Assembly (NCBI GenBank): GCA_003488005.1
Contig: DNND01000024.1
Span: 1-24,000 of the forward strand
DNA: 24,000 bases
Direction of reading: 5' to 3'
Source: Blastocatellia bacterium
Lineage (GTDB): Bacteria > Acidobacteriota > Blastocatellia > Pyrinomonadales > Pyrinomonadaceae
Part shown: piece after piece, positions 1,637 to 21,675 of the stretch
How the letters are laid out: each line of letters opens with the position of its first letter
How positions within the stretch are numbered: position 1 is the stretch's first letter
Program-made: the position numbers and the translations under genes
Notes under the pieces: model-generated
What the model was told of the DNA's origin: nothing
Database searches by the model: none
The model's input: the letters and a program-made list of their open reading frames with translations, nothing else

Positions 1637-1684
1637 CCGCTAGCGGTCGATGAGGTCAGTACCGCCTGCGGTAGCGGGTGGATG
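1637..1684 (+). repeat. REP-like element family A, single copy
   Basis: ccgctagcggtcgatgaggtcagtaccgcctgcggtagcgggtgg matches the core of the copies at 1-147. Confidence 0.85.
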
Positions 1685-1733
1685 TATTATCCTTTTTCGC
1701 CAAGCCCTAACTCCCGAGCAAAAGCGCCCAAGC

Positions 1734-1859
1734 ATTCACGATTCACGGCTCTATCATCTGTGTAATCCGCGTAATCTGCGGATGTTTCCGGCTGTTTACT
1801 GTTTGCCGTTTGCTCTTTGCTTTTCCATTTTACCATTCACCATTTACCATTCACCTCGC
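1734..1859. repeat. 7-nt periodic leader region, about 18 in-phase units
   Basis: ATTCACG ATTCACG ... GTAATCC GCGTAAT CTGCGGA TGTTTCC GGCTGTT TACTGTT TGCCGTT TGCTCTT TGCTTTT CCATTTT ACCATTC ACCATTT ACCATTC ACCTCGC. The array ends exactly at the ATG at 1860. Confidence 0.75.
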
Positions 1860-2636
1860 ATGTCTTCCACCTTTCAAGCAGACTTTGATCGCATCGCACT
1901 CGCTTCACCCGAAGGTGGGATTCAAAACGAGCACTACCACAACTTTCTTCTCAAACAAGTTCCTTCGCGCTGCGACCAGGTTCTGGAAATTGGCTGCGGC
2001 ACCGGAACCTTCGCCCGCGCGCTGGCCGCGCGTTCGAATCATGTGCTCGGCATTGATCTCTCGCCGGAAATGATTCGTCTCGCGCGCGAAAACTCAACTC
2101 AGTCAAGCAAGGCCCGAGGTCAGCAAGCTCGAGGTCAGCAGGCTCGAGGTCAGCAGGCTGGAGTTCAGGAGGCTCGAGGTCAGGAAGGGGGCGTGCCCCC
2201 GCTTTGGTTTTCTAACCTTGAATTTCAGGTGGGCGATATTCTTCAGTTCGATCTACCGTCGGAGCACTTCGACTGCATTGCCAGCATCGCGACCCTTCAT
2301 CACCTGCCATTTCGTGAAGTGTTGTTGAAAATGAAAGCAGCGCTCAAGCCTGGCGGCGTATTGCTGATCCTCGATTTGTTCGAACCACAAGGCGTGTCGG
2401 ACTGGCTACTAAATTTCCCTGCCCTCTCCGTAAGCACCATACTGCGTTTGATTAGTCATCACCGGCTGCGCCCCCGCCGCGAAGTGCGCGCCGCCTGGGC
2501 CGCCCACGAAGCCCACGACCTCTACCCAACGATGACCGACATGCGCTCCATCTGCGCCGACCTCCTCCCCGGTGCCAAAGTCAGAAAACATCTCCTTTGG
2601 CGCTACTCAATTGTTTGGTATAACTCAAACTCATGA
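1860..2636 (+). CDS. Class I SAM-dependent methyltransferase (small-molecule type, not a DNA MTase)
   Basis: SAM-binding motif I VLEIGCGTGTFARAL, followed by VLGIDLSPEMIRLAREN. No (D/N/S)PP(Y/F) DNA-MTase motif. The ATG at 1860 (MSSTFQADF) is preferred over the track start at 1650, which is repeat-derived. Confidence 0.8.
   Translation: MSSTFQADFDRIALASPEGGIQNEHYHNFLLKQVPSRCDQVLEIGCGTGTFARALAARSNHVLGIDLSPEMIRLARENSTQSSKARGQQARGQQARGQQAGVQEARGQEGGVPPLWFSNLEFQVGDILQFDLPSEHFDCIASIATLHHLPFREVLLKMKAALKPGGVLLILDLFEPQGVSDWLLNFPALSVSTILRLISHHRLRPRREVRAAWAAHEAHDLYPTMTDMRSICADLLPGAKVRKHLLWRYSIVWYNSNS
2112..2186 (+). repeat. In-frame 15-nt x5 tandem repeat inside the methyltransferase CDS
   Basis: gcccgaggtcagcaa / gctcgaggtcagcag / gctcgaggtcagcag / gctggagttcaggag / gctcgaggtcaggaa, encoding ARGQQARGQQARGQQAGVQEARGQE. 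Confidence 0.9.
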
Positions 2637-3835
2637 ACCTTTCCTCCATCTTTTCCCATGTCGCTCACAAACAACTTGTTCGCGTTGATCTTCCAAAATT
2701 GGGTTCAAACCAACACGAACTTAACGGTGTAACAGCACTCAAGGAATTCTTTGGATCTACAGAACCTTCACGCGGAAAGATAAGTTGGCATTACTTCGCT
2801 GACGATCAGGATCCGATCCAGGATGAGGGCGAGTTCACGTTCTACGATGCACGCGCCAAAAGCGCGGAAACCACTGGACGCAGCGAGTGGCGTTTTTACT
2901 ACTACGGGAATTTTCTCTCATGCGCGACGATAGGTGATTGGTTCTTTCTGGTGCGCTCCCAATCGGGACGCTTGTTCGGATTGGTGTTCCAGCAGGATTC
3001 AGCATGGCTTCGGGCAGCCCAAGCGTTGTTCGGAGTTGAAGCGTCGGATCCATCATTCTATCTGGTGACCCGCGAGATTCTCGACAACCAACAGGTTGAA
3101 TTACTTCGCCGACAAATTCTGACTGAACTCGACTTGGAAGTTACGCTTCCGGCACGTCCAAGCGATGAAGAGCTGATGCTTAAGAAATACAACCGAACGT
3201 TTCCAACAACTAAAGAGATGGCAGCGTTAGCGCGCTCCCAAGTAGAAGTAGACTTGCAAAAGCCCGACGAAGTGCTGGTTCGTTGGCTTGATAGAGAGGA
3301 AGAACTATTCAGGGCCTTGGAGAATGTCATTATCGGAGAACGCCTGAAGGCTGGGTTTGAATCAGTCGACGATTTCATTGCATATTCACTCTCCGTGCAA
3401 AACCGACGGAAATCCCGAATGGGCTTAGCTCTTCAAAACCACCTCGCCGAATTGTTTACCCAACAGGGCTTGAAATTCACCGCGCAGGCTCACACAGAAG
3501 CAAACAATCGACCCGATTTCATCTTTCCCGGCGAACGGCAATATCATGATGCAGCGTTCGAGGTAGCGCTGCTGGTAATGCTTGGCGTGAAGTCGACGAG
3601 TAAGGACCGATGGCGACAGGTTCTAACAGAGGCCGATAAAATCCGTCGAAAACATCTTTGCACGCTTGAACCGGGCATCTCGACTAAACAGACCGATGAG
3701 ATGGTCCGGCAAGAGTTGACGCTTGTTGTTCCCGCTACATTGCATGAAACCTATACTAGAGCTCAGCGCGAGTGGTTATTAAGTGTCGGGGCGTTTATCG
3801 AATTCGCACGTGGCAAACAGAGTCAGGAACCCTAA
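2633..3835 (+). CDS. Type II restriction endonuclease, EcoRII family (EcoRII-C catalytic domain)
   Basis: The C-terminal half aligns, from my memory of EcoRII, over GFESVDDFIAYSLSVQNRRKSRMG...NNRPDFIFPG...LGVKSTSKDRWRQVLTEADKI...LVVPATLHETY...LSVGAFIEF. Vsr and a C5-MTase are adjacent. The start overlaps the upstream stop (ATGA). Confidence 0.85.
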   Translation: MNLSSIFSHVAHKQLVRVDLPKLGSNQHELNGVTALKEFFGSTEPSRGKISWHYFADDQDPIQDEGEFTFYDARAKSAETTGRSEWRFYYYGNFLSCATIGDWFFLVRSQSGRLFGLVFQQDSAWLRAAQALFGVEASDPSFYLVTREILDNQQVELLRRQILTELDLEVTLPARPSDEELMLKKYNRTFPTTKEMAALARSQVEVDLQKPDEVLVRWLDREEELFRALENVIIGERLKAGFESVDDFIAYSLSVQNRRKSRMGLALQNHLAELFTQQGLKFTAQAHTEANNRPDFIFPGERQYHDAAFEVALLVMLGVKSTSKDRWRQVLTEADKIRRKHLCTLEPGISTKQTDEMVRQELTLVVPATLHETYTRAQREWLLSVGAFIEFARGKQSQEP

Positions 3836-3910: not shown

Positions 3911-4318
3911 ATGGCAGACGTATTAACGCCAGCACAACGTAGCTTCAATATGTCGCGTATCAAGAATCGGAATACGCGGCCTGAGATGATCGTGCGCTCT
4001 ATTGTTCATCGGCTGGGTTATCGATATCGACTCCACAAGAAAAATCTTCCAGGCAAACCGGACGTGGTTCTTGTGCGCCATCGAAAGATCATCGATGTGC
4101 ATGGATGCTTCTTTCACATGCACACCTGCAAGTATGGGAAGGTAGTACCCGCGACGAACGCTGAGTTTTGGAAAGCAAAGCGGTTGTCGAACGTGGAGAG
4201 GGATCGTCGGAACTTGCGAGCATTGAAGCGGGAAGGTTGGCGCGTGATGACTGTCTGGGAATGCGAAACCAGAAACGCCAAACAGCTTGCAAAACGGCTG
4301 GAAAGATTTCTGAAATAG
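3911..4318 (+). CDS. vsr: Very short patch repair endonuclease
   Basis: MADV...RSFNMSRIK..NTRPE...LPGKPDVVL...IDVHGCFFH.H.C...PATNAEFW.AK...NVERDRRN...L...GWRV..VWECE is collinear with E. coli Vsr as I recall it. It lies next to a C5-MTase. Confidence 0.93.
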   Translation: MADVLTPAQRSFNMSRIKNRNTRPEMIVRSIVHRLGYRYRLHKKNLPGKPDVVLVRHRKIIDVHGCFFHMHTCKYGKVVPATNAEFWKAKRLSNVERDRRNLRALKREGWRVMTVWECETRNAKQLAKRLERFLK

Positions 4319-4327
4319 TAACGTCTC

Positions 4328-5338
4328 TTAGGCAGATGATGCATGAGAGAGAGATAGCTGCCGTGCTTTTCGGTATACCCGACGTGTCGATTTTTGTCCT
4401 TCGAATAGACACTTAACCATTTCGCCCGCTATGTGCTCGACCACAGGGACAACCACCGAATTACCAAACTGTTTGTATGCCCTGGTATCGCTAACTTCGA
4501 TTTGGAAATCCTCGGGAAATCCCATTAGCCTTGCGCATTCGCGGGGCGTTAAGCGGCGCGGGTTTTTACCCTTTTGTTGGATCAGTATTTCGCTACCGTC
4601 CTTGTAATAGCGTGCACTTAGCGTCCGTGCGATTCCTTTAGGATCAGTCAACCCGAAGCCAAACCCATTTCCTTTTGCGCGATGCTTATCAGCATAATCC
4701 CTAAGATATTTCCAGAGATGGTTAGTTAAGGTGTAACGATCCTCAACTTGGGGTTCAAGGATTTTCCCAAAGCGGGGTTTCAGGTCTGGGAGTTTTGGCA
4801 ACTGGAAGCTAACAGGGTCTCTGAAGCCAATTAAATATATTCGTTCCCTATGTTGAGGTACGACGGAACGTGCATCGAGCAGCTCAGGATACACGTGGTA
4901 GCCAAGTTCGTCTTCGAGAGTATGCAAGATAGTCTCATAAGTGTGCCCTGTGTCGTGTCTCATGAGGTTCTTTACGTTTTCAAGGAGGAAGGCTTTTGGC
5001 TTCTTTGCTTTGATGATCCGAGCCACGTCAAAAAACAAAGTGCCTTGTGTAGCATGTTCGAATCCATGGGCATTACCCAGGGCGTTGTTTTTTGTGACGC
5101 CGGCGATTGAGAACGGCTGGCATGGAAAGCCGGCAGTGAGAATGTCATGATCGGGAATGTCCTCTGCCTCTATCTTAGTGATATCCCCGGCGGGTTTTTC
5201 ATGAAAATTTGCTTCGTAGGTTTGGGTCGCATACTTGTCCCACTCGGAAGCGAATAAGCAAGTTCCTCCGACGTTCTGGAACGCTATTCGAAAGCCGCCA
5301 ATGCCGGCAAACAATTCAATGAAAGTAAACGAGGCCAT
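4328..5338 (-). CDS. dcm: DNA (cytosine-5)-methyltransferase
   Basis: All canonical C5-MTase motifs are present: FAGIGGF (I), GFPCQPFS (IV), ENVKNL (VI), [11 protein letters not shown] (VIII), [12 protein letters not shown] (IX), FGNSVVVPV (X). At 336 aa the target-recognition domain is short. Confidence 0.95.
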
Positions 5339-5574: not shown

Positions 5575-6300
5575 TCATTTCTGCGCCGGGAGGAACTTAC
5601 TAAACTCTTGCGGCATCATGCCCATCAAATCCAATGCCTCCATCATATAAAGGTTCCACGTTACGTCAAATTGCTGTAAGACGTCAGCGAGTCGCCGTGC
5701 GCTGCCGGGTCCCTTGCCTGCCGCTCCGCGTCGCGGCCGCCGCGTGGATCGATCTATATATAGATTCGTAGCTAGTTCAACCACAGCCCGATTTGTGACA
5801 AGCTCTTGCCGTGCGGAAATCTGCTCAGCAATCTCGCCAGGTTTACTTAGAGGCCCGCTAAGCAAAGCAAGAGCTCGGTCAGGATTGTCGCGATGCGTTC
5901 TATAAATCCGGAATGGACCTGCAAGTAAGTGGCGATAATACTTTCTAAAATTCGAAGTTGCTGGTATCCATCGCGCCCGGTCGCCAGGTTTTCTCTTGCC
6001 TGACTTATCAACTGGGCAGAGCTGGTCAAAGAAATACAATGAAAGCCAAGCCCAAATACCTCGATCCCTATCAAGTTCAGGTATCCCGGAGTCTGCCAAG
6101 AGATCGTAGAGGTATCTAGCAGCCTCTAATCGGCTGGCAAATGTTTGCATCTTGATCTCGATTGCGTTGGGGAGATCTTCGGTGGTGTGCGGATCTTCCA
6201 AAATCGGGGACGGAACTGGTAAAGGCTCCTCGCCTGTCAGAGAGTCTAAGAAATCATTAAACCTTTCTAGCCCCAGTTTATTGAACCTCTTGATGATCAC
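5575..6300 (-). CDS. Hypothetical protein, gene E (last) of the GHKL operon
   Basis: 241-aa ORF. The GTG start at 6300 overlaps the upstream stop by 1 nt (TAGTG), with GGAG 8 nt upstream. I recognise no family motif. Confidence 0.7.
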   Translation of the reverse strand: MIIKRFNKLGLERFNDFLDSLTGEEPLPVPSPILEDPHTTEDLPNAIEIKMQTFASRLEAARYLYDLLADSGIPELDRDRGIWAWLSLYFFDQLCPVDKSGKRKPGDRARWIPATSNFRKYYRHLLAGPFRIYRTHRDNPDRALALLSGPLSKPGEIAEQISARQELVTNRAVVELATNLYIDRSTRRPRRGAAGKGPGSARRLADVLQQFDVTWNLYMMEALDLMGMMPQEFSKFLPAQK

Positions 6301-7061
6301 TACGACTGCTCCTCCTTCCAGTATGTGCGAAACTGTTCCAACATTCCGTGCGATTTTGAAAAGGCTGCAACAGCGTTGTCCACCCAGTCGTCATATTCCG
6401 AAAAGCCCTTCTCCTCCGGAGGAGCGGACACACCCGGAAGTCGAGTAGCATATCGTAGCCATTCAGCCCTCCAATCTTCGACATCGTCCACCTCATGATA
6501 TTTTTCGACCCACAAGATTCTAGTTAGTATTTGTCGCAGAACCTGCGGATAAACCAGCGAAACAAAGACCGGTAGTTTAGCTACCGTGCGCCAGTCACCC
6601 AAGGATGAATTAACCAGTAAAAGAGGACGGTCAGCGAAGTCCATCTTAGTAATTTCGAAGTCGAGGTCCTCGGAAGCAACAGGTAGAAGGGGCGCTCGTT
6701 TCTCCTCCTGTTCTTCAGATAACTGAAAGGGAATTTGGTCTGCCTCAGCCAATAACTTTCCAGGAGTAGGCTCACCGGATGTAACCCTCACACGGAATCG
6801 CACGCCTTCGGGCGAATCGAATTCTGTCAATTCTCGGTTCTCAGAAGGAATAAGCTCATAAACAGTTCCGAAGTCAAACCGCATCCAACCAGTCTGCCGA
6901 TACGCTTCGACTGAAACGGTGGCCTCCTTTGGTAAAGAGTAATCCTCGAGTTCAACCTTCGCATCGAACCTTGCCGGCCCGCTTGGGTTACTGTGGACTA
7001 CAACACTAACGTGGTCCCTTGTTATTCGTTTGCGCCCGGTGTAGTTAATTCGTCGAATCAT
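6300..7061 (-). CDS. Hypothetical protein, gene D of the GHKL operon
   Basis: 253-aa ORF. The ATG at 7061 is preceded by a strong SD (GGGAGGA, 5-nt spacer) and overlaps the GHKL gene end by 17 nt. The N-terminal half looks beta-rich and the C-terminal half helical. I recognise no family motif. Confidence 0.75.
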   Translation of the reverse strand: MIRRINYTGRKRITRDHVSVVVHSNPSGPARFDAKVELEDYSLPKEATVSVEAYRQTGWMRFDFGTVYELIPSENRELTEFDSPEGVRFRVRVTSGEPTPGKLLAEADQIPFQLSEEQEEKRAPLLPVASEDLDFEITKMDFADRPLLLVNSSLGDWRTVAKLPVFVSLVYPQVLRQILTRILWVEKYHEVDDVEDWRAEWLRYATRLPGVSAPPEEKGFSEYDDWVDNAVAAFSKSHGMLEQFRTYWKEEQS

Positions 7062-8943
7062 CGAAGTCCTCCCTCGCGTTCACTTTGACGTAAAGATCTC
7101 TACGGTCGTCAAATCCCTTTACACTAACCTTAAACTCGGGCGCTTTTACCGCAACGACGATATTGTTATGTATCAGTCGCTTACGCTCTACGCCTTCCTC
7201 GACAACGGAAAGTTGGGCTAGGTCGAAATCGACAGGCTCATACTTATTCAAAGGATTGCCTCGCCTGATATCATAAGCCACTCGGATGTCTAGGAAAGCA
7301 GGAATGCTTTCTGCCTTGGGACCTTGAGTCACCGAGAACCCTCCAGCAACTTTTTGAACAATAAAGCGTCGAGGCCTGGGGGGAGGAAACGTCGGCTTTA
7401 GCTTTCTAGAAGGCTCACTTTCTTTTTCTTCCGGCTCTTCTGGCTGCTCTTCTACCTCTGGCAGAAAAAACAAATCGAGAAGAAGCGTTGGATCGATCTG
7501 AGCCTCACCTTCAGACAGTATTTGAAGGATCTCATGGATGCTCCGCACTACGAATTGGATATAAGCCGGGCCGTAGAAATACTTGCCTTTATAATTTGAC
7601 GAGTCTCTTTGCCATTGCGTGTGAGCCGGATTTTCTGAATCACCGAGTAAAGTGGCCAAGGGTTCATCTTCTACAACCACGAGCGATGTGACGCCCCGGT
7701 TTCGCGGAGATCTTATGTCTGAAATGATGATCCCTTCCCGAATAAAAACCGGCCGACCGCCTTCGGATTGCATATCGCGGACAAGAAATACATCAAAAAA
7801 GGACGGTCTTGGATCCTCATTCTTTTTTCGAACGACTAATGGCACTCGTAAAGCAAGGCGTTCTCCCGCTTTGAGCAATGCACTAATCGTCTTTAGCTGT
7901 TCGTCCGAAATAAGTTCAGGAGACCATGCCGGGCCGCGATTGCTTGGAGGCGCTGAAAGGTGCAAGAGGTCATTCGGTCTTCGCTGAGTGGCCCAATCAG
8001 CCATCTCAAGCACAGCTGTAAAACCTTGGGGCAACCGATCCGCGATGCCGCGGCTTACTCCCAAAAGTGTCTCGTGATTTATCAATGTATCCGATTCGGG
8101 CGTCGACACTGTTACCTGAAGTGTGGCTGCAAGGATCGGGTAAAAGTAATCCCGACAAACGGCTTCAACTATCGCTTCCGCGTCTATTTCCGGATCGCAC
8201 CAAGGAACCACTACAGAAAGTCCAGGCTCCGATCCTCTCGTCAATCTAAAGTCTTCAATAAATCTTTCGATTGGCCTTGGTTCGTCAATGGGCAACGTGA
8301 GGTTATCGTCCGGTTTCACTCCGTAGTAACCGTCGGGAGAGTAATATGCATCAGCCGCATAGTGCGATTTCAATATGGATCCACCCATCAGCAGTCGCTT
8401 CCTATCATCTGCTCTTACGGTAAGGCCGAAGTATGAGCTTACCCGACTTGATCTTGGGAAAACTGTCTTGCCAACTCCCCACCGACCCCGATCATGTTCT
8501 CCCTTGTCGGACTGTCCCTCGGCCCTAAAGAAATAGTAGAAAGGATTCCTGGTGCCCGGCAGATCGTGCCATTGCCTGACGTCTCCAGTCAGACCTGAAG
8601 TGCCGAAATCTTCTATTGCCAGAAATGGGCAACTCTCATTTTTTGTGGGCGCGTCATGGAGACCGTTTCCGGTTGCGGAGATATGAGGCCAACTACCGGC
8701 CATGTAAGCCCCAACGATGTGAGGGGCCAGCGCGCCGCCATCCCCTGAAACATATATCCTCACGCCAACGGTCTTATCGTCTAGGGCCGCGTCAAGAGCG
8801 TTTTGAATCGATTCTCGGATCAATGCCTCTGCCGGGTTCTTTATGGCATCGGTAGCAAAAAACTCCCCTAAGACAGGTTCGCGGTTCTTGTCTCCAGGCT
8901 TTGGTTGGTTGAAGTACCATTGTGAAGTCATAGTCTTTCTCAA
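7045..8943 (-). CDS. GHKL (Bergerat-fold, Hsp90/MORC/MutL-like) ATPase with a large uncharacterised C-terminal region
   Basis: N-box E44-SIQ-N48-ALDA, motif II D112-F-G-T-S-G, motif III G153-RW-G-V-G-K, in the canonical order and spacing. An acidic linker EVEEQPEEPEEKESEP lies near residue 500. The start is TTG at 8943 (overlapping the upstream TGA) or ATG at 8931. Confidence 0.8.
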   Translation of the reverse strand: MRKTMTSQWYFNQPKPGDKNREPVLGEFFATDAIKNPAEALIRESIQNALDAALDDKTVGVRIYVSGDGGALAPHIVGAYMAGSWPHISATGNGLHDAPTKNESCPFLAIEDFGTSGLTGDVRQWHDLPGTRNPFYYFFRAEGQSDKGEHDRGRWGVGKTVFPRSSRVSSYFGLTVRADDRKRLLMGGSILKSHYAADAYYSPDGYYGVKPDDNLTLPIDEPRPIERFIEDFRLTRGSEPGLSVVVPWCDPEIDAEAIVEAVCRDYFYPILAATLQVTVSTPESDTLINHETLLGVSRGIADRLPQGFTAVLEMADWATQRRPNDLLHLSAPPSNRGPAWSPELISDEQLKTISALLKAGERLALRVPLVVRKKNEDPRPSFFDVFLVRDMQSEGGRPVFIREGIIISDIRSPRNRGVTSLVVVEDEPLATLLGDSENPAHTQWQRDSSNYKGKYFYGPAYIQFVVRSIHEILQILSEGEAQIDPTLLLDLFFLPEVEEQPEEPEEKESEPSRKLKPTFPPPRPRRFIVQKVAGGFSVTQGPKAESIPAFLDIRVAYDIRRGNPLNKYEPVDFDLAQLSVVEEGVERKRLIHNNIVVAVKAPEFKVSVKGFDDRRDLYVKVNAREDFDDSTN

Positions 8944-9350
8944 AAACCCTTTCCGCTTAAGTGAATTAAGCCTCGCTTGAAACCATTTCTCCGGCGCTCA
9001 ATGTCCTTTGCGAAACGCAAGCCCATCTTAGTAAGACGCCATCCGCCTTCCCAGTCACCAAGCGCATATTTCCACTCCGCCTCTGTTGCTTTGGCGAGAA
9101 CCAATTGGATAAGGGCAAGGTCAGGCACTTTCTTCCCGTCGACCCAAGTGAAGAAGTCGTCGGGATATGTAGCATTCGCCTGTGCAGCAATTCTTTCAAT
9201 TCGAACTTTACTCCGACTGGCGTTACAAAGGTAAAGGACAAAGGCCATTTCGGGAATTAACGATCCCCAACTGGTGCGGTGTTGCCGCTGTAGATTCTCG
9301 TAGTATTTCGGCGCCCAAGGGAAAGAATTAGATACTCTTGCTGTACTCAT
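8940..9350 (-). CDS. Hypothetical small protein, gene B of the GHKL operon
   Basis: 136-aa ORF. ATG at 9350 with AAGGA upstream; the stop overlaps or abuts the GHKL gene start. Possibly a winged-helix fold (weak impression only). Confidence 0.65.
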   Translation of the reverse strand: MSTARVSNSFPWAPKYYENLQRQHRTSWGSLIPEMAFVLYLCNASRSKVRIERIAAQANATYPDDFFTWVDGKKVPDLALIQLVLAKATEAEWKYALGDWEGGWRLTKMGLRFAKDIERRRNGFKRGLIHLSGKGF

Positions 9351-9401
9351 TTATTTGTTATTCCTTATCCAAGAAGTCCGACGATAGTTGGTTTCCAAGG
9401 C

Positions 9402-10043
9402 TTATCCTGCATATGGCGACAGTTCGTTCCAGTGCGTAGTCGCCGCCGCATTAAGACTTTCTCCGTTCACTACACTGTAGCCTTGCCTTCCATGGGCTTG
9501 GACCAATCCTTCGTGACGCAACCAAGCGAGGCAGAGGTAGCTCTGATAGTTTGGAACTGGTGAGCCCTCATCAGCACCGAGCGGGAATACATCGTCAGCT
9601 GTGAAGATTGTCCCACCAGAGCCTACGACTGTGAGCTTTGAGACCAGTTGCATCAAAACGGAATGGGGGGCTTTATGGTGATACTCAGCCCGTTCGCGCT
9701 TGGACCAGCCAATCTTCATAAGTTCTCCAGAGGTTCGAAAGAATTTTGGGTACCGACCTGCCAAACGCGCCTTTTGCGAACCCTTTGAAGGGAGGGAATC
9801 CGAGCCGGTCCGGCCGGTAATCGTTCGCTGGGGCGAAGCCTGAGAACCTCCCGGTATTTGTTTGGCGGGCGCTAGTTCAGCTTTTGCATCCTCGACCAAT
9901 CCTCCGAGAACTCTTGCCCATGAAGTGAGCTTGATTACAGCTCCGTAATCGCCCTCTGAAGCAGCAGTGCTGACTAATCGCTGGAGGCCTTTTTCACAAT
10001 CTTCCAAGAGTCTGACGGCGTTTATGCTATCCATGGCTACCAT
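9402..10043 (-). CDS. Hypothetical protein, gene A (first) of the GHKL operon; possible C-terminal winged-helix
   Basis: 213-aa ORF with a helical N-terminus, a disordered Ser/Gly/Gln linker and the C-terminal segment NYQSYLCLAWLRHEGLVQAHGRQGYSV (wHTH-like). The start is ambiguous. The ATG at 10043 overlaps a consensus -10 box, so the ATG at 10034 (MDSINAV) is preferred if the promoter is real. Confidence 0.65.
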   Translation of the reverse strand: MVAMDSINAVRLLEDCEKGLQRLVSTAASEGDYGAVIKLTSWARVLGGLVEDAKAELAPAKQIPGGSQASPQRTITGRTGSDSLPSKGSQKARLAGRYPKFFRTSGELMKIGWSKRERAEYHHKAPHSVLMQLVSKLTVVGSGGTIFTADDVFPLGADEGSPVPNYQSYLCLAWLRHEGLVQAHGRQGYSVVNGESLNAAATTHWNELSPYAG

Positions 10044-10069
10044 TATACCCGAAATACACCGAATGTCAA
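10042..10069 (-). promoter_or_regulatory. Consensus sigma70-type promoter of the GHKL operon, predicting a leaderless mRNA
   Basis: The minus strand reads TTGACA-(16 nt: ttcggtgtatttcggg)-TATAAT-ggtagcc-ATG. The -35 is at 10064-10069 and the -10 at 10042-10047. The second ATG (10034) sits 8 nt after the -10. Confidence 0.5.
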
Positions 10070-10746: not shown

Positions 10747-10840
10747 GCGGAGTGACGCGGATTCAGAACGCAGACGGCAGGAGCAGTAGGCAGCAGGCAG
10801 CAGGCAGCAGGCAGCAGGCAGCAGGCAGCAGGCAGACAGC
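10747..10840. repeat. Heptamer tandem array including 6 perfect AGCAGGC units
   Basis: GCGGATT CAGAACG CAGACGG CAGGAGC AGTAGGC (AGCAGGC)x6 AGACAGC, all in one 7-nt phase. It begins 13 nt after the membrane-protein stop codon. Confidence 0.9.
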
Positions 10841-18615: not shown

Positions 18616-19008
18616 TCAATGGTGAAGTGCGGAATGCGGAGTGCGGATTGGTGCTAATTTATTTTGACGTGCTGTTCTGATTGAAGCGACAGTAATTGCG
18701 ACAATCTGATGTACCTCATCCAACAGATCGTCAACACGAGCCTTTTCGATCAAACCAGAATCCACGAGTAATTCTATCCAATAGATTATTTCGTCAGCCT
18801 CTTCTTCAACTATACCCATTTTGGCAATGAAGTCGGCCCGCGATTTAGCCCGGCATGAGGCCCTGTAGTTTGCGCCAACCGAAGTTCCGCAGCGCAACAG
18901 TTGTTTGCTGATTACATCGCATGCCTTACCAGAGGGAAGGGACTCAACGAGTCGAATGATTCTAAGAGCGAGTGCTCTCGTTCGCTGTTTCATCTCATCA
19001 GAGTTCAT
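18616..19008 (-). CDS. Four-helix-bundle protein (23S rRNA intervening-sequence protein family, PF05635-like)
   Basis: ALRIIRLVESLPSGKACDVISKQLLRCGTSVGANYRASCRAKSRADFIAKMGIVEEEADEIIYWIELL matches the family pattern. The ATG at 19008 (MNSDEMKQ) is preferred, because the track start at 19062 overlaps korB and reads through a heptamer array. The last ~12 codons are also encoded by a heptamer array. Confidence 0.85.
   Translation of the reverse strand: MNSDEMKQRTRALALRIIRLVESLPSGKACDVISKQLLRCGTSVGANYRASCRAKSRADFIAKMGIVEEEADEIIYWIELLVDSGLIEKARVDDLLDEVHQIVAITVASIRTARQNKLAPIRTPHSALHH
18622..18656. repeat. Heptamer array forming the left inverted repeat of the four-helix cassette
   Basis: GTGAAGT GCGGAAT GCGGAGT GCGGATT GGTGCTA. 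Confidence 0.85.
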
Positions 19009-19016
19009 TTGCTTGA

Positions 19017-19051
19017 AATCCGCAATCCGAAATCCGCATTCCGCAATTACT
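19017..19051. repeat. Heptamer array forming the right inverted repeat of the four-helix cassette
   Basis: AATCCGC AATCCGA AATCCGC ATTCCGC AATTACT. The reverse complement matches 18629-18649 at 19 of 21 positions. The korB stop codon (TAA 19047-19049, minus strand) lies in the last unit. Confidence 0.85.
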
Positions 19052-20168
19052 GCACGACCCAAGTATCGCCGCTGTTGATTAGTTTTTCCAAACTGCCTGG
19101 GCCAACTTTGGCAATCGCAGCCTCGATTTGATCGACCATCAACTCTTCATAGCTTGGCCGTTCGACGGCGCGAAAGATGCCGACCGGCTGCGGAAAGTCC
19201 GGCTGCTCCATGCGTGCCAGCATGAAAGCCACGGAAGGGTCTTGCAAATAGATGTCATGGACCAGCAGATCGTCTTCATTGATGCCGTTCTCGCCAATAG
19301 TCACCACTTCCGGATGCGCGCCGTTCATGCGAATGCCTTTGTTCCGATCCTTACCGTAAATCATCGGCTTGCCGTGTTCGAGATAAAGCACGCGATCGGT
19401 GCGCACGCTGCGTTCGGCAAATGAATCGAACGCATGATCGTTAAAGATGTTGCAGTTTTGATAGACCTCGATGAAAGAGATGCCCTTGTGTTTTGCCGCC
19501 GCCTCAACCACGGTGCCAAGATGTTTGACATCAATATCGATTGAGCGCGCCACAAAGGTCGATTCGCTGGCGATGGCCAGGGAAAGCGGATTGATAGGAT
19601 AGTCAACTGCCCCCATCGGACTCGACTTCGTTTTCTTGCCAAACTCGGAAGTCGGACTGTACTGGCCCTTAGTCAAACCATAGATGCGGTTGTTGAAAAG
19701 TATGTAATTGATGTCGAGGTTGCGGCGAATGGCGTGCATGAAATGGTTGCCGCCAATAGAAAGCGCATCGCCGTCGCCGGTGATTACCCAGACGCTCAAG
19801 TCGGGGTTCGCACACTTAATGCCGGTGGCAACCGCCGGGGCGCGGCCATGAATCGAGTGAAAGCCATAAGTGTTCATGTAATAAGGAAAGCGCGAAGAGC
19901 AACCGATGCCGGAAACGAAAACGATCTTTTCGCGCGGCACGCCGAGTTCGGGCATGACTTTCTGCACGTTGTTGAGGATTGCGTAATCGCCGCAGCCAGG
20001 GCACCAGCGCACTTCCTGATCGGAAACGAAGTCAGACTTTTTCAGTTGTCCCGGCGGCGGCGCAATCTTTCCTGATACCGCAGACCCGCCTTCGCTCTCG
20101 GCAGAGATGCTGGCTTCGACCGGCGTCGTGTTGCCGTTGCCACTAAGACCATTTCCGTTTGTGCTCAT
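19047..20168 (-). CDS. korB: 2-oxoglutarate:ferredoxin (2-oxoacid:acceptor) oxidoreductase, beta subunit
   Basis: RWCPGCGDYAIL, the TPP-binding region VITGDGDALSIGGNH, and YILFNNRIYGLTKGQ. The ATG at 20168 (MSTNGNG) with AGGAG upstream is preferred; the track start at 20288 overlaps the Uma2 gene. Confidence 0.92.
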   Translation of the reverse strand: MSTNGNGLSGNGNTTPVEASISAESEGGSAVSGKIAPPPGQLKKSDFVSDQEVRWCPGCGDYAILNNVQKVMPELGVPREKIVFVSGIGCSSRFPYYMNTYGFHSIHGRAPAVATGIKCANPDLSVWVITGDGDALSIGGNHFMHAIRRNLDINYILFNNRIYGLTKGQYSPTSEFGKKTKSSPMGAVDYPINPLSLAIASESTFVARSIDIDVKHLGTVVEAAAKHKGISFIEVYQNCNIFNDHAFDSFAERSVRTDRVLYLEHGKPMIYGKDRNKGIRMNGAHPEVVTIGENGINEDDLLVHDIYLQDPSVAFMLARMEQPDFPQPVGIFRAVERPSYEELMVDQIEAAIAKVGPGSLEKLINSGDTWVVQ

Positions 20169-20196: not shown

Positions 20197-20748
20197 CTAA
20201 GCAAATATTTCTTCGATTTGTATCCGGAAACCTGGCAAAACATCTCCACCATCGAGCAGATCGTTTTCGGTAAACGCGGAAATATCATTTAACGAGCGGT
20301 AAACGGTCACGCTGCGCATGCTTGGACTAACGACCCACACCTGTTGGGTTCCAGCAGCCAACCACTCTGAAACCTTTTCTTCGACTTCGCCGACGGTGTC
20401 GTTCGGACTTAATACTTCCACGGCAAGATCGGGCGGGCCGGGCCAGTAACCTTTGGTTTTCCCAATCTCGTCAACTCGTTTTCGACGAACAAATGCGATG
20501 TCTGGTGCACGCACCGTATCGGGATTGGAACTGAGCTTGAAACCAGTTTCGGCTGCGTATACTTCTCCCAAATTATGTTTTTGCACATGCAGCGCAAGGG
20601 GCAGGGTTAGACGAATTATGATCCTGCCATGATTATGTCCCGCTGGTGACATCTTCTTTAGTTCTCCATTGACGAGTTCGTAACGAAACTCGCCTCGAGG
20701 TAAAGCCAGAAGCTCATCAGCGGTCATGAGTTGTACTTCGGTGCTCAT
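20197..20748 (-). CDS. Uma2 family (DUF820) restriction-endonuclease-fold protein
   Basis: MTADELLALP..FRYELVNGEL..MSPAGHNHGRI...APDIAFV......PPDLAVEVLSPND...KV.EWL.AG....WVV.P is the typical Uma2 pattern with a PD...(D/E)xL core. ATG at 20748. Confidence 0.85.
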   Translation of the reverse strand: MSTEVQLMTADELLALPRGEFRYELVNGELKKMSPAGHNHGRIIIRLTLPLALHVQKHNLGEVYAAETGFKLSSNPDTVRAPDIAFVRRKRVDEIGKTKGYWPGPPDLAVEVLSPNDTVGEVEEKVSEWLAAGTQQVWVVSPSMRSVTVYRSLNDISAFTENDLLDGGDVLPGFRIQIEEIFA

Positions 20749-20801
20749 ATTTCTTGAACGTACACCTCGCGGGGTAGGGTAACCCGCAATCATTCATCAA
20801 C

Positions 20802-21480: not shown

Positions 21481-21675
21481 TCTTCGACGCGTAGCGTCGG
21501 TAGAGTTTAGCCCGGCGTTTCAACGCCGGGTTCAATTCGAAATGTGTCCCCCGTCGCGTAGCGATGGCCGATAATACCGCTGATTTCGGGCGTCGCTACG
21601 CGACGCGAACGCCTCGTTGACTGCTCCCGGCCTTGAAAGGCCGGGCTAAATTCTACCGACGCTACGCGTCGAAGA
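21481..21675. mobile_element. Nested palindromic element (family D): ~35-bp outer inverted repeats enclosing three hairpins
   Basis: Outer arms tcttcgacgcgtagcgtcggtagagtttagcccgg and ccgggctaaattctaccgacgctacgcgtcgaaga. Inner hairpins: cccggcg-tttcaa-cgccggg (21511-21530), cgtcgcgtagcga...tcgctacgcgacg (21552-21605) and cccggcc-ttgaaa-ggccggg (21626-21645). Confidence 0.7.

What the first reader, a model, noticed from the sequence alone, without database searches (positions are those of the whole stretch)
5575..10069. Five-gene operon built around a GHKL ATPase next to an R-M/Vsr module: candidate undescribed defence system
Five minus-strand ORFs (213, 136, 632, 253 and 241 aa) form one tightly packed unit. 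The junctions are a 51-nt gap, a stop/start overlap (TTGA) or 8-nt gap, a 17-nt overlap with a GGGAGGA SD, and a 1-nt overlap (TAGTG) with a GGAG SD. A consensus promoter sits upstream. The 632-aa protein carries all three Bergerat-fold ATP-binding motifs in canonical order (E44-xxx-N48-xx-DA; D112-F-G-T-S-G; G153-RW-G-V-G-K). It then has about 380 further residues, including an acidic linker and a C-terminal domain, that I cannot place. In the other four proteins I can find no Walker A, helicase, HNH, convincing PD-(D/E)xK, TIR/SIR2 or transmembrane signature. Genes A and B have wHTH-like C-termini. The operon abuts an EcoRII-type R-M plus Vsr, is co-oriented with dcm, and ends 236 bp upstream of it with no visible terminator. 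From memory, GHKL ATPases (MORC/paraMORC, MutL-like) are known components of R-M-linked conflict systems, often beside Dcm/Vsr. Their usual partners (Z1, AIPR, HNH or PD-(D/E)xK proteins) are absent here. The gene number and sizes match no named system I know (Mza, BREX, DISARM, Wadjet, Lamassu, Septu, Zorya and others). The effector is therefore unknown.
Basis: partly seen in the sequence, partly recalled or inferred. Interest (0 to 1): 0.88.

Follow-up and report, generated by a model that had tools for sequence, protein, structure and literature searches.

The report
GHKL ATPase trio tied to Dcm/Vsr
The ORFs are real, but the conserved unit is three genes (a GHKL ATPase and two unknown partners) that almost always sit beside a cytosine methylase and its Vsr repair nuclease, so this is probably an untested methylation-linked DNA-defence module.

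Summary
Every sequence-level observation checks out: the five ORFs, their junctions, the Shine-Dalgarno (SD) sites, the consensus promoter, the Bergerat ATP-binding motifs and the 236-bp gap before dcm.

The interpretation needs re-drawing. Across about 110 related loci from many phyla, only C (628 aa), D (253 aa) and E (241 aa) travel together, and their divergence is tightly correlated (r = 0.77-0.91). A occurs in about 10% of loci. B occurs only in the closest relative.

A C5 cytosine methylase lies within 3 kb in 40 of 48 fully flanked loci, and Vsr in 33. The trio is often spliced between dcm and vsr. An Xre-type controller-like helix-turn-helix (HTH) gene sometimes sits in front.

The AlphaFold model of C (pLDDT 88.7) is a GHKL ATPase plus transducer. 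Its best structural match is topoisomerase VI-B, followed by Hsp90, GyrB, SMCHD1 and MORC3. The model of E (pLDDT 93.7) matches nothing in PDB. D has no match in any library.

C is a distant relative of PDC-M33A, part of an untested PADLOC defence candidate. The general theme of GHKL ATPases with Dcm and Vsr was described in 2008.

My best reading is an ATP-driven surveillance or restriction arm of a Dcm-marked, restriction-modification (R-M)-like system. The effector is unknown; E is the leading candidate.

The parts
10042..10069 (-). Consensus sigma-70-type promoter (TTGACA-16-TATAAT) for the A-B-C-D-E transcription unit
   Evidence: 12 of 12 matches. The -10 box ends 7 nt before the ATG of Met4 of A. 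The scan as a whole is not enriched over shuffled sequence, so this is a consensus match and function is not shown.
9402..10043 (-). Gene A (213 aa as the longest ORF; probably 210 aa from the ATG at 10034). Lineage-specific accessory protein with an N-terminal helix, a low-complexity linker and a conserved C-terminal domain.
   Evidence: No hit in Pfam, NCBIfam, PADLOC or PHROGs. Homologues lie directly upstream of C in 9-10 of 82 loci. The alignment shows a conserved YPxF..WSK..Y.H...YQAYL.LAWL..GL...GR.GY block.
8940..9350 (-). Gene B (136 aa). Accessory protein private to this lineage.
   Evidence: No family hit. The only homologue among the 82 loci is in L004, the closest relative.
7045..8931 (-). 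Gene C (628 aa from the ATG). GHKL/Bergerat ATPase plus transducer (about residues 1-480), a disordered acidic/proline linker (489-511) and a C-terminal beta-sandwich (523-620).
   Evidence: AF2 model pLDDT 88.7, pTM 0.74. Foldseek against PDB: Topo VI-B 2e-11, then Hsp90, GyrB, Topo II ATPase, SMCHD1 and MORC3. Invariant E40/N44/D47, E107-D108..G113..G116 and G149..G152xG154-K155; LGDSENPAHTQWQ (429-441) strictly conserved within the family and recognisable but diverged at 25% identity. PADLOC PDC-M33A 6.5e-20.
6300..7061 (-). Gene D (253 aa). Obligate partner of C, with a beta-rich N-terminal half and a helical C-terminal half as judged by eye from the sequence (not modelled). Function unknown.
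   Evidence: Always follows C with overlapping or abutting codons. Divergence correlates with C at r = 0.91. At least 2000 clusters (50% identity) in the profile search, all stand-alone proteins of about 250 aa among the best 150. No hit in Pfam, PADLOC or PDB sequences.
5575..6300 (-). Gene E (241 aa). Obligate third partner, an all-alpha protein with no structural match in PDB. Candidate effector.
   Evidence: AF2 model pLDDT 93.7, pTM 0.90. Best Foldseek E-value is 3 against PDB and 2.6 against BFVD. Invariant R57, W83, W85, Y121-Y122-R123-H124, Q160, R202-R203 and Q210. A few homologues weakly hit DUF6339. Replaced by an HNH gene in one variant locus.
4328..5338 (-). dcm, a C5 cytosine DNA methyltransferase. 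Co-oriented with E and 236 nt downstream of it. Proposed self-marking component.
   Evidence: PF00145 3e-94. A Dcm homologue lies within 3 kb of C-D-E in 40 of 48 fully flanked loci, and within 300 bp on the same strand in 30.
3911..4318 (+). vsr, the very-short-patch T:G mismatch endonuclease. Convergent with dcm.
   Evidence: PF03852 5e-27. Vsr lies within 3 kb of C-D-E in 33 of 48 loci. In several loci it follows E directly, so C-D-E sits between dcm and vsr.
2633..3835 (+). EcoRII-type restriction endonuclease. An ordinary Type IIE restriction partner of the same Dcm.
   Evidence: EcoRII-C 2e-66. EcoRII-type or MvaI/BcnI-type nucleases accompany the Dcm/Vsr pair in only a minority of C-D-E loci.

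Best explanation
The conserved entity is a three-protein module. C is a GHKL ATPase with a transducer and a C-terminal beta-sandwich. D and E are two dedicated partners. The module works together with a C5 cytosine methyltransferase (Dcm) and, usually, Vsr. I read it as the ATP-dependent surveillance or restriction arm of a Dcm-marked, R-M-like defence system of the MORC/paraMORC type.

Proposed mechanism:
- Dcm methylates host DNA and so marks it as self (inferred).
- Vsr repairs the T:G mismatches that arise when 5-methylcytosine deaminates (established role of Vsr).
- C dimerises on ATP binding, as other GHKL clamps do, and engages DNA together with D and E (inferred).
- DNA that lacks the methyl mark is then attacked. 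E is the leading candidate for the effector, because an HNH nuclease gene takes its place in one variant (inferred, and weak).
- C-D-E pairs with many unrelated Dcm lineages. It therefore probably reads methylation status without relying on one recognition sequence (inferred).

In this window the same Dcm also serves a conventional EcoRII enzyme. A and B are lineage-specific add-ons, possibly regulators.
For: The trio is a unit.
- C, D and E are adjacent, co-oriented and overlapping in every complete locus among 82 + 29 examined.
- Their pairwise divergences correlate: C-D 0.91, D-E 0.82, C-E 0.77.
- The trio persists at 24% identity on a Rhizobium plasmid (hhalign 97.6% for D, 98.9% for E).

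Linkage to methylation.
- Dcm lies within 3 kb in 40 of 48 loci, and within 300 bp on the same strand in 30. Vsr lies within 3 kb in 33 of 48.
- Junctions of -4 to +25 nt suggest translational coupling.
- dcm-C-D-E-vsr operons, in which the trio splits the usual dcm-vsr pair, occur in several branches of the C tree.
- The linkage recurs in 27 further metagenome loci and beside the distant Rhizobium trio.

R-M-like regulation.
- An Xre-type HTH gene, resembling R-M controller proteins, abuts the upstream Dcm in at least 8 loci.

C looks like an active ATPase clamp.
- All catalytic motifs are invariant.
- The model matches Topo VI-B, Hsp90, GyrB, SMCHD1 and MORC3 across both the ATPase and transducer regions.

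Defence flavour.
- C hits PADLOC PDC-M33A.
- The E. faecalis plasmid version sits next to an AIPR gene.
- An HNH gene replaces E in one locus.
- HEPN, PIN/TA, Type ISP, HerA, Schlafen-helicase and recombinase genes occur in the neighbourhoods.
- The family is patchily spread across many phyla, in about 156 of 185,579 species genomes.
- It is absent from 2.9 million viral contigs.
- The window island has lower G+C (0.49-0.51) than its housekeeping flanks.

The general theme of GHKL ATPases in R-M operons with Dcm and Vsr is published (PMC2292703).
Against: - No nuclease or other effector domain was found in C or E by sequence or by structure. D was never modelled and has no sequence-level hit.
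- Dcm divergence barely tracks C divergence (r = 0.14). Dcm is therefore swapped often, which does not fit a sequence-specific restriction enzyme matched to its methylase.
- Seven of 48 well-flanked loci and one basal clade lack Dcm/Vsr within 3 kb.
- In L027 the methylase appears to have been lost to IS elements while C-D-E stays intact. Unmethylated self DNA may therefore be tolerated, unless another Dcm lies elsewhere in that genome.
- The HNH-for-E replacement is a single locus. It rests on weak precomputed Pfam hits, and no DNA was available to check it.
- No experiment exists. PDC-M33 itself is untested.
Confidence: 0.5

Rival explanations
1. C-D-E is a dedicated repair accessory for the mobile dcm-vsr cassette. 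C would be a MutL-like ATPase that, with D and E, stimulates or targets the Vsr nickase. This would limit C-to-T mutation at methylated sites in hosts whose own MutL does not cooperate with the incoming Vsr.
For: - C-D-E is embedded between dcm and vsr in several lineages. Vsr lies within 3 kb in 33 of 48 loci.
- E. coli MutL physically stimulates Vsr. This is established knowledge and is cited in PMC2292703.
- Weak co-divergence with Dcm (r = 0.14) is what a specificity-independent helper would show.
- No nuclease domain was found in C or E.
Against: - Seven of 48 loci and a whole basal clade have neither Dcm nor Vsr nearby.
- Distant versions sit with AIPR, with HEPN, or with an HNH gene replacing E.
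- PDC-M33 was defined by embedding inside BREX, DISARM or Type I R-M systems.
- C lacks any MutL C-terminal domain, and its best structural match is Topo VI-B, not MutL.
- Vsr is less constant than Dcm: 33 against 40 of 48 loci.
Confidence: 0.18
2. C-D-E is a self-contained defence or abortive-infection module that does not use 5-methylcytosine at all. It tends to nest inside or beside methylation operons for co-regulation or co-transfer. Other defence genes are embedded in BREX, DISARM and Type I R-M systems in the same way.
For: - PDC candidates, including the related PDC-M33, were found by exactly this kind of embedding.
- Dcm partners are swapped freely relative to C-D-E.
- Clades and plasmid versions without Dcm exist.
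- The position upstream of C is filled by various genes: PIN, A, a 380-aa protein, AIPR.
Against: - 83% adjacency to one particular enzyme family across the whole C tree is far more specific than general defence-island clustering. A Dcm also sits beside a relative of only 24% identity.
- Overlapping stop and start codons with dcm, and a controller-like HTH in front of dcm-C-D-E, indicate a single regulated operon.
Confidence: 0.2
3. One reading: a five-gene system A-B-C-D-E that works as one unit and is functionally independent of the neighbouring EcoRII/Dcm/Vsr module.
For: - In this window and in L004 the five genes are tightly packed behind one consensus promoter.
- The window's Dcm, Vsr and EcoRII form a complete conventional R-M set on their own.
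Against: - B is absent from 81 of 82 related loci, and A from about 90%.
- The slot occupied by A is filled by Dcm, PIN or other genes elsewhere.
- Dcm/Vsr linkage is the dominant conserved feature.
Confidence: 0.07

Closest known systems
PADLOC phage defence candidate PDC-M33, one of 145 untested 'guilt-by-embedding' candidates (bioRxiv 10.1101/2024.01.29.577857)
   Same: - C and all 26 tested homologues hit the PDC-M33A model, which is 627 positions long (best 9.5e-25).
- The E. faecalis plasmid cassette that matches PDC-M33A (5e-47) and PDC-M33B (2e-11) has the same layout: three overlapping genes of about 640, 290 and 260 aa.
   Different: - The match of the window's C covers only residues 100-295.
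- D does not hit PDC-M33B, and E hits nothing.
- Comparing the D and E profiles with the enterococcal second and third proteins finds no similarity.
- The enterococcal cassette pairs with AIPR, not with Dcm/Vsr.
Prokaryotic MORC and paraMORC1-5 GHKL ATPases of R-M operons (Iyer, Abhiman and Aravind 2008, PMC2292703)
   Same: - An N-terminal GHKL domain plus an S5-like transducer with intact ATP motifs.
- Gene neighbourhoods with cytosine methylases and Vsr-family endonucleases.
- Patchy, laterally mobile distribution.
   Different: - C does not hit HATPase_c_3 or any other Pfam GHKL model.
- There is no superfamily II helicase, restriction-endonuclease-fold, TIR or HNH partner in this window.
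- The partners D and E are not described in that paper.
- Which paraMORC family C belongs to, if any, could not be determined.
[not shown]
   Same: A GHKL ATPase in a multi-gene cassette linked to Dcm.
Topoisomerase VI subunit B (best structural match)
   Same: GHKL plus transducer architecture. Foldseek E-values 2e-11 to 8e-10 over the whole chain.
   Different: Sequence identity is only 9-13%. No Top6A/Spo11-like partner was found: E matches no solved structure, and D's acidic residues are not conserved in the Rhizobium homologue. There is no evidence of strand passage.
MutL-Vsr cooperation in E. coli very-short-patch repair
   Same: A MutL-class ATPase encoded together with Dcm and Vsr.
   Different: C has no MutL C-terminal dimerisation or endonuclease domain and no Pfam MutL hit. 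C-D-E also occurs without Vsr.
GHKL-nuclease fusions such as paraMORC3 / Shedu type I-D (VcSduA, PMC12137116)
   Same: A GHKL ATPase thought to control a DNA-targeting effector in a validated anti-phage protein.
   Different: VcSduA is a single protein carrying a DUF4263 PD-(D/E)xK nuclease domain. C has no nuclease domain and depends on two separate partner genes.

Membership tests
GHKL / Bergerat-fold ATPase superfamily | Motif I (N box): E-x3-N-x2-D, carrying the catalytic Glu and the Mg-binding Asn | tested here: met
   E40, N44 and D47 are invariant in 120 homologues and in relatives of 23-25% identity.
GHKL / Bergerat-fold ATPase superfamily | Motif II (D-x-G-x-G) and motif III (G-x-x-G-x-G) | tested here: met
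   E107-D108-F-G-T-x-G113-L-x-G116 and G149-R-W-G152-x-G154-K155 are invariant.
GHKL / Bergerat-fold ATPase superfamily | Bergerat fold followed by a transducer (S5-like) domain in three dimensions | tested here: met
   AF2 model pLDDT 88.7. 43 PDB matches at E <= 1e-3, all GHKL ATPases: Topo VI-B, Hsp90, GyrB, Topo II, SMCHD1 and MORC3. Alignments span 450-730 columns.
GHKL / Bergerat-fold ATPase superfamily | A basic residue of the transducer that contacts the ATP gamma-phosphate | tested here: inconclusive
   R398-x-G400 is invariant, even in distant relatives. No model coordinates were available to check its position.
MORC / paraMORC (Iyer et al. 2008) | Sequence membership (HATPase_c_3-type GHKL, family-specific motifs) | tested here: not met
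   No Pfam GHKL model hits C or any of 26 homologues, even at E <= 1. A profile search against PDB sequences finds no MORC or MutL.
MORC / paraMORC (Iyer et al. 2008) | Operon context with a DNA methylase and a Vsr-family endonuclease | tested here: met
   Dcm within 3 kb in 40 of 48 loci, Vsr in 33 of 48.
MORC / paraMORC (Iyer et al. 2008) | A superfamily II helicase or recognisable nuclease partner in the operon | tested here: not met
   None among A-E. EcoRII-type or MvaI/BcnI-type nucleases are present in only a minority of loci.
PADLOC PDC-M33 | Hit to the PDC-M33A model | tested here: met
   6.5e-20, but only residues 100-295 align to positions 102-279 of the 627-position model. 26 of 26 homologues hit.
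PADLOC PDC-M33 | Hit of the adjacent gene to the PDC-M33B model | tested here: not met
   D and 26 homologues give no PADLOC hit at E <= 1. The enterococcal second gene does hit (2.3e-11).
[not shown]
   The only PADLOC hit among A-E is PDC-M33A.
Type II R-M with Vsr (EcoRII/Dcm/Vsr), applied to the neighbouring genes only | C5 methylase, EcoRII catalytic domain and Vsr domain | tested here: met
   PF00145 3e-94, PF09019 2e-66, PF03852 5e-27.
Topoisomerase VI / Spo11-type enzyme | An A subunit with Toprim and 5Y-CAP domains partnering the B subunit | tested here: inconclusive
   E has no structural match in PDB. D was not modelled, but its candidate acidic residues (E52, E106, D108) are not conserved in the Rhizobium homologue. 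No Pfam Toprim hit.
MutL | MutL transducer (DNA_mis_repair) and C-terminal dimerisation/endonuclease domains | tested here: not met
   No Pfam or NCBIfam hit. The C-terminal part of C is a short beta-sandwich after a disordered linker.

The most novel reading that the evidence does not exclude
C-D-E is a new kind of methylation-reading restriction machine. A Topo VI-B-like GHKL clamp loads on DNA and, with D, senses whether 5-methylcytosine is present regardless of sequence context. That would explain why it works with any Dcm. It then licenses E, a nuclease with a fold not seen in any solved structure, to cut unmarked DNA. This would be a prokaryotic counterpart of the link between GHKL ATPases (MORC, SMCHD1) and cytosine methylation in eukaryotes.
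Probability: 0.15. Interest if true: 0.85.

Novelty: new variant of a known kind. Interest (0 to 1): 0.62.

Why it matters
If this reading is right, a widespread but uncultured-biased gene trio is an uncharacterised partner of Dcm/Vsr. The trio comprises thousands of protein clusters across Acidobacteriota, Verrucomicrobiota, Planctomycetota, Chloroflexota, Gemmatimonadota, Proteobacteria and other phyla.

Many Dcm/Vsr modules are currently annotated as orphan methylases. Some of them would instead be the modification half of an ATP-dependent defence system.

The trio would add two proteins of unknown function to the defence repertoire, and E has no structural relative in PDB. It would also give a tractable bacterial model for how GHKL clamps couple to cytosine methylation.

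In practice, annotation pipelines miss it completely. No Pfam, NCBIfam or PHROGs model hits it, and only a partial PADLOC candidate hit exists.

Tried and rejected
Library and sequence searches that found nothing
- Pfam, NCBIfam and PHROGs scans of A-E gave no hits.
- Scanning 79 homologues of C, D and E one by one gave only chance-level Pfam hits, plus weak DUF6339 hits for E.
- PDB sequence searches with C alone and with profiles of C, D and E gave nothing meaningful. The hits were N-box similarity to histidine kinases at E about 2, designed double-psi barrels at 0.05-0.09 for D, and an acetolactate synthase small subunit at 2e-4 for E. I regard that last hit as spurious for an all-alpha model.

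Ideas tested and dropped
- D + E as a split Top6A/Spo11. The idea came from 'VEAYRQ' and 'EAD' in D and 'RKYYRH' in E. It was dropped because E has no structural match, D's N-terminal half looks all-beta by eye, and D's acidic residues are lost in the Rhizobium homologue.
- D as an EcoRII-N-like DNA-binding barrel. hhalign against the window's own EcoRII gave 0.6% probability.
- B as a degenerate PIN, because PIN genes occupy the same slot elsewhere. There is no Pfam support and no PIN-like motif by eye.
- A related to the 380-aa protein that sits upstream of C in other loci. There was no hit.
- A phage origin. There were 0 relatives in 2.9 million viral contigs, and one weak partial hit among 50,697 phage records.

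Literature
- Searches for PDC-M33 and DUF6339 returned nothing. Searches on GHKL with Dcm/Vsr and defence returned only the 2008 paraMORC paper and unrelated systems.

Tool failures
- The first structure job was interrupted.
- As a result, D was never modelled. C's C-terminal domain and E were searched only with Foldseek against PDB, and E also against BFVD.
- I tried to recover DNA for the HNH variant through the metagenome scan. It returned only standard C-D-E loci.


Full report
**1. Observation**

The window carries five minus-strand ORFs exactly as reported: A 9402-10043, B 8940-9350, C 7045-8943, D 6300-7061 and E 5575-6300.

All four junctions are correct.
- A/B: a 51-nt gap.
- B/C: TTGA overlap, or an 8-nt gap to the ATG at 8931.
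- C/D: a 17-nt overlap, with GAGGGAGGA ahead of the ATG.
- D/E: TAGTG, with GGAGGAG upstream.

A perfect TTGACA-16-TATAAT promoter match lies at 10069-10042. Its -10 box overlaps the first ATG of A and ends 7 nt before Met4. A therefore probably starts at Met4 on a near-leaderless transcript.

E ends 236 nt before dcm, and no terminator-like site lies between them.

C should be read from the ATG, giving 628 aa. That matches the deposited protein from a Blastocatellia MAG (Acidobacteriota) and every homologue.

The segment from about 2.5 to 10 kb has lower G+C (0.49-0.51) than its flanks (0.53-0.62). The flanks encode housekeeping genes: EF-P, a 2-oxoacid:ferredoxin oxidoreductase and a BNR-repeat hydrolase. 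The segment therefore looks like an acquired island.

**2. What the proteins are**

None of A-E hits Pfam, NCBIfam or PHROGs.

C's only library hit is the PADLOC model PDC-M33A (6.5e-20, residues 100-295). All 26 aligned homologues hit the same model. PDC systems are 145 candidates proposed from genes embedded in BREX, DISARM or Type I R-M systems. Their authors describe them as untested.

The Bergerat motifs are invariant in 120 homologues. They persist in relatives of 23-25% identity from a Rhizobium megaplasmid and an Enterococcus faecalis plasmid.

An AlphaFold2 model of C built on 120 sequences is confident (pLDDT 88.7). It shows four parts:
- an ATPase domain;
- a transducer with invariant R398-x-G400;
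- a disordered acidic/proline linker (489-511);
- a C-terminal beta-sandwich (523-620).

Foldseek against PDB returns only GHKL enzymes. Topoisomerase VI-B comes first (2e-11), followed by Hsp90, GyrB, the Topo II ATPase, SMCHD1 and MORC3.

A strictly conserved LGDSENPAHTQWQ loop (429-441) remains unexplained.

E gives a very confident all-alpha model (pLDDT 93.7, pTM 0.90). It has no Foldseek match in PDB or in the viral structure set. Its invariant residues include Y121-Y122-R123-H124, R202-R203, Q160 and Q210. A few homologues weakly touch DUF6339.

By eye, its N-terminal half looks beta-rich and its C-terminal half helical. No polar residue that might be catalytic survives in the Rhizobium homologue.

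**3. What the unit is**

I collected four sets of related loci:
- 79 loci from one genome per species;
- several long metagenome contigs;
- 27 metagenome loci;
- two plasmid regions.

C, D and E are adjacent, co-oriented and overlapping in every locus that is not cut by a contig end. Their pairwise divergences are strongly correlated: C-D 0.91, D-E 0.82, C-E 0.77.

A is found directly upstream of C in only 9-10 of 82 loci. B is found only in the closest relative. Elsewhere the slot upstream of C holds a Dcm gene, a PIN toxin (13 loci, some with a MazE-like partner), an unknown 380-aa protein, or AIPR on the enterococcal plasmid.

The five-gene unit is therefore a local elaboration of a three-gene core.

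**4. The Dcm/Vsr link**

Among 48 loci with at least 2.5 kb on both sides:
- a C5 methylase lies within 300 bp in 32, on the same strand in 30;
- a C5 methylase lies within 3 kb in 40;
- Vsr lies within 3 kb in 33.

Several arrangements recur and are interleaved across the C tree:
- dcm-C-D-E-vsr, in which the trio is inserted into the usual dcm-vsr pair, with 4-nt overlaps at the junctions;
- (PIN-)C-D-E-dcm-vsr;
- C-D-E next to a convergent vsr-dcm pair;
- C-D-E next to full EcoRII-type or MvaI/BcnI-type R-M sets, as in this window.

An Xre-type HTH gene, of the kind that acts as controller protein in Type II R-M systems, abuts the upstream dcm in at least eight loci. Even the Rhizobium trio, at 24% identity, has a Dcm-like gene 2.7 kb away.

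Several observations point the other way.
- Dcm divergence hardly follows C divergence (r = 0.14; Mantel test, 6 of 2000 permutations reached it).
- At least three Dcm lineages are used.
- Seven of 48 loci and one basal clade have no Dcm or Vsr nearby.
- In L027 the methylase seems to have been replaced by IS elements while C-D-E remains intact.

**5. Context**

Neighbourhoods with precomputed or tested domains contain many conflict-type genes: TA pairs, HEPN proteins, a Type ISP enzyme, Fic, HerA/DUF87, a Schlafen-type helicase, STAND NTPases, serine recombinases and transposases.

The family occurs in about 156 of 185,579 species genomes, scattered over many phyla. It is absent from 2.9 million viral contigs.

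In one variant locus the third gene is a 172-aa HNH protein that starts at D's stop codon, exactly where E normally starts. This suggests that E occupies an effector slot. It is a single case, it rests on weak precomputed hits, and I could not obtain the DNA.

**6. Mechanism**

Shown:
- a co-diverging three-protein module;
- an intact GHKL ATPase with a transducer;
- operon-level integration with Dcm, Vsr and a controller-like HTH.

Inferred:
- C forms an ATP-operated dimeric clamp on DNA, with D and E as subunits;
- Dcm marks self DNA, and Vsr pays the mutational cost of 5-methylcytosine;
- unmarked DNA is attacked, with E as the best effector candidate;
- because Dcm partners are exchanged freely, the module probably senses methylation without depending on one recognition sequence.

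I put this reading at about 0.5. The rivals are:
- a MutL-like helper for Vsr repair (about 0.18);
- an autonomous defence module that merely nests in methylation operons (about 0.2);

**7. Comparison with known systems, and novelty**

GHKL ATPases in R-M-like operons with cytosine methylases and Vsr were described by Iyer, Abhiman and Aravind in 2008. C does not match their families at the sequence level, and it has none of their helicase or nuclease partners.

It is not Mza, because no PADLOC Mza model hits. It is only a distant relative of PDC-M33: D fails the PDC-M33B model.

I found no paper describing the C-D-E trio. The library searched does not cover subscription journals.

I rate it a new variant of a known kind.

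Noticed in passing
window 21485-21530 (-) and 21626-21671 (+): Two copies of the Acido-Lenti-1 RNA motif (Rfam RF01687; 45.7 and 43.8 bits against a gathering score of 37). They lie in inverted orientation about 95 nt apart, between an unknown 218-aa ORF and the oxidoreductase gene. This fits an acidobacterial origin.
   Followed up: no
window 10776-10835: A (GCAGCAG)n tandem repeat of 7.6 copies at 97% match. It lies in the poorly coding stretch between the island's promoter and the BNR-hydrolase gene, and it creates low-complexity ORFs on both strands.
   Followed up: no
window 1650-2636 (+): A class I SAM-dependent methyltransferase (Methyltransf_25/11) whose stop overlaps the EcoRII start by 4 nt, so it appears co-transcribed with EcoRII and vsr. 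It hits PADLOC mad2 at 2.3e-24. Homologues occur in L004 and L005 near the trio.
   Followed up: partly
window 10034-10069 (-): The consensus -10 box ends 7 nt before the ATG of Met4 of gene A. The A-B-C-D-E transcript is therefore probably leaderless or nearly so.
   Followed up: partly
window 18616-19062 (-) and 20197-20793 (-): A 23S rRNA intervening-sequence protein homologue and a Uma2-family putative restriction endonuclease lie among housekeeping genes, far from the island.
   Followed up: no
L001, L005, L021, L024, L029, L032, L035, L038, L047, L061, L070, L072, L081 (gene directly upstream of C, or one gene further upstream in two loci): A PIN-domain toxin of about 136 aa sits directly or nearly directly upstream of C in 13 loci. 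A MazE/AbrB-like gene lies in front of it in several. This looks like a recurrent TA module attached to the trio.
   Followed up: partly
JGI sample 3300047160, contig of 123,740 bp (P0038 locus; no DNA held): A variant cassette: C (637 aa), D (265 aa) and then an HNH protein (172 aa, weak Pfam hits) in the position of E. There is no Dcm or Vsr within 10 kb. A Schlafen-type helicase and a PLD-like gene are nearby.
   Followed up: partly
L088 8128-10004; also L010, L014, L016, L031, L049, L056, L069: A 76-aa Xre-type HTH gene abuts the 550-610-aa 'upstream-type' Dcm. That Dcm carries an uncharacterised C-terminal extension of about 170 aa beyond the methylase domain.
   Followed up: partly
L117 260-9405: A further arrangement: vsr, dcm, a 611-aa unknown protein, a HerA/DUF87 ATPase, then C-D-E, all on one strand.
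   Followed up: no
L039 and L043, downstream of E: A conserved three-gene set follows the trio: a HEPN_Swt1-Hsp70-like protein (about 980 aa), a UvrD-like helicase (about 400 aa) and an unknown protein (about 500 aa). It may be another defence cassette.
   Followed up: no
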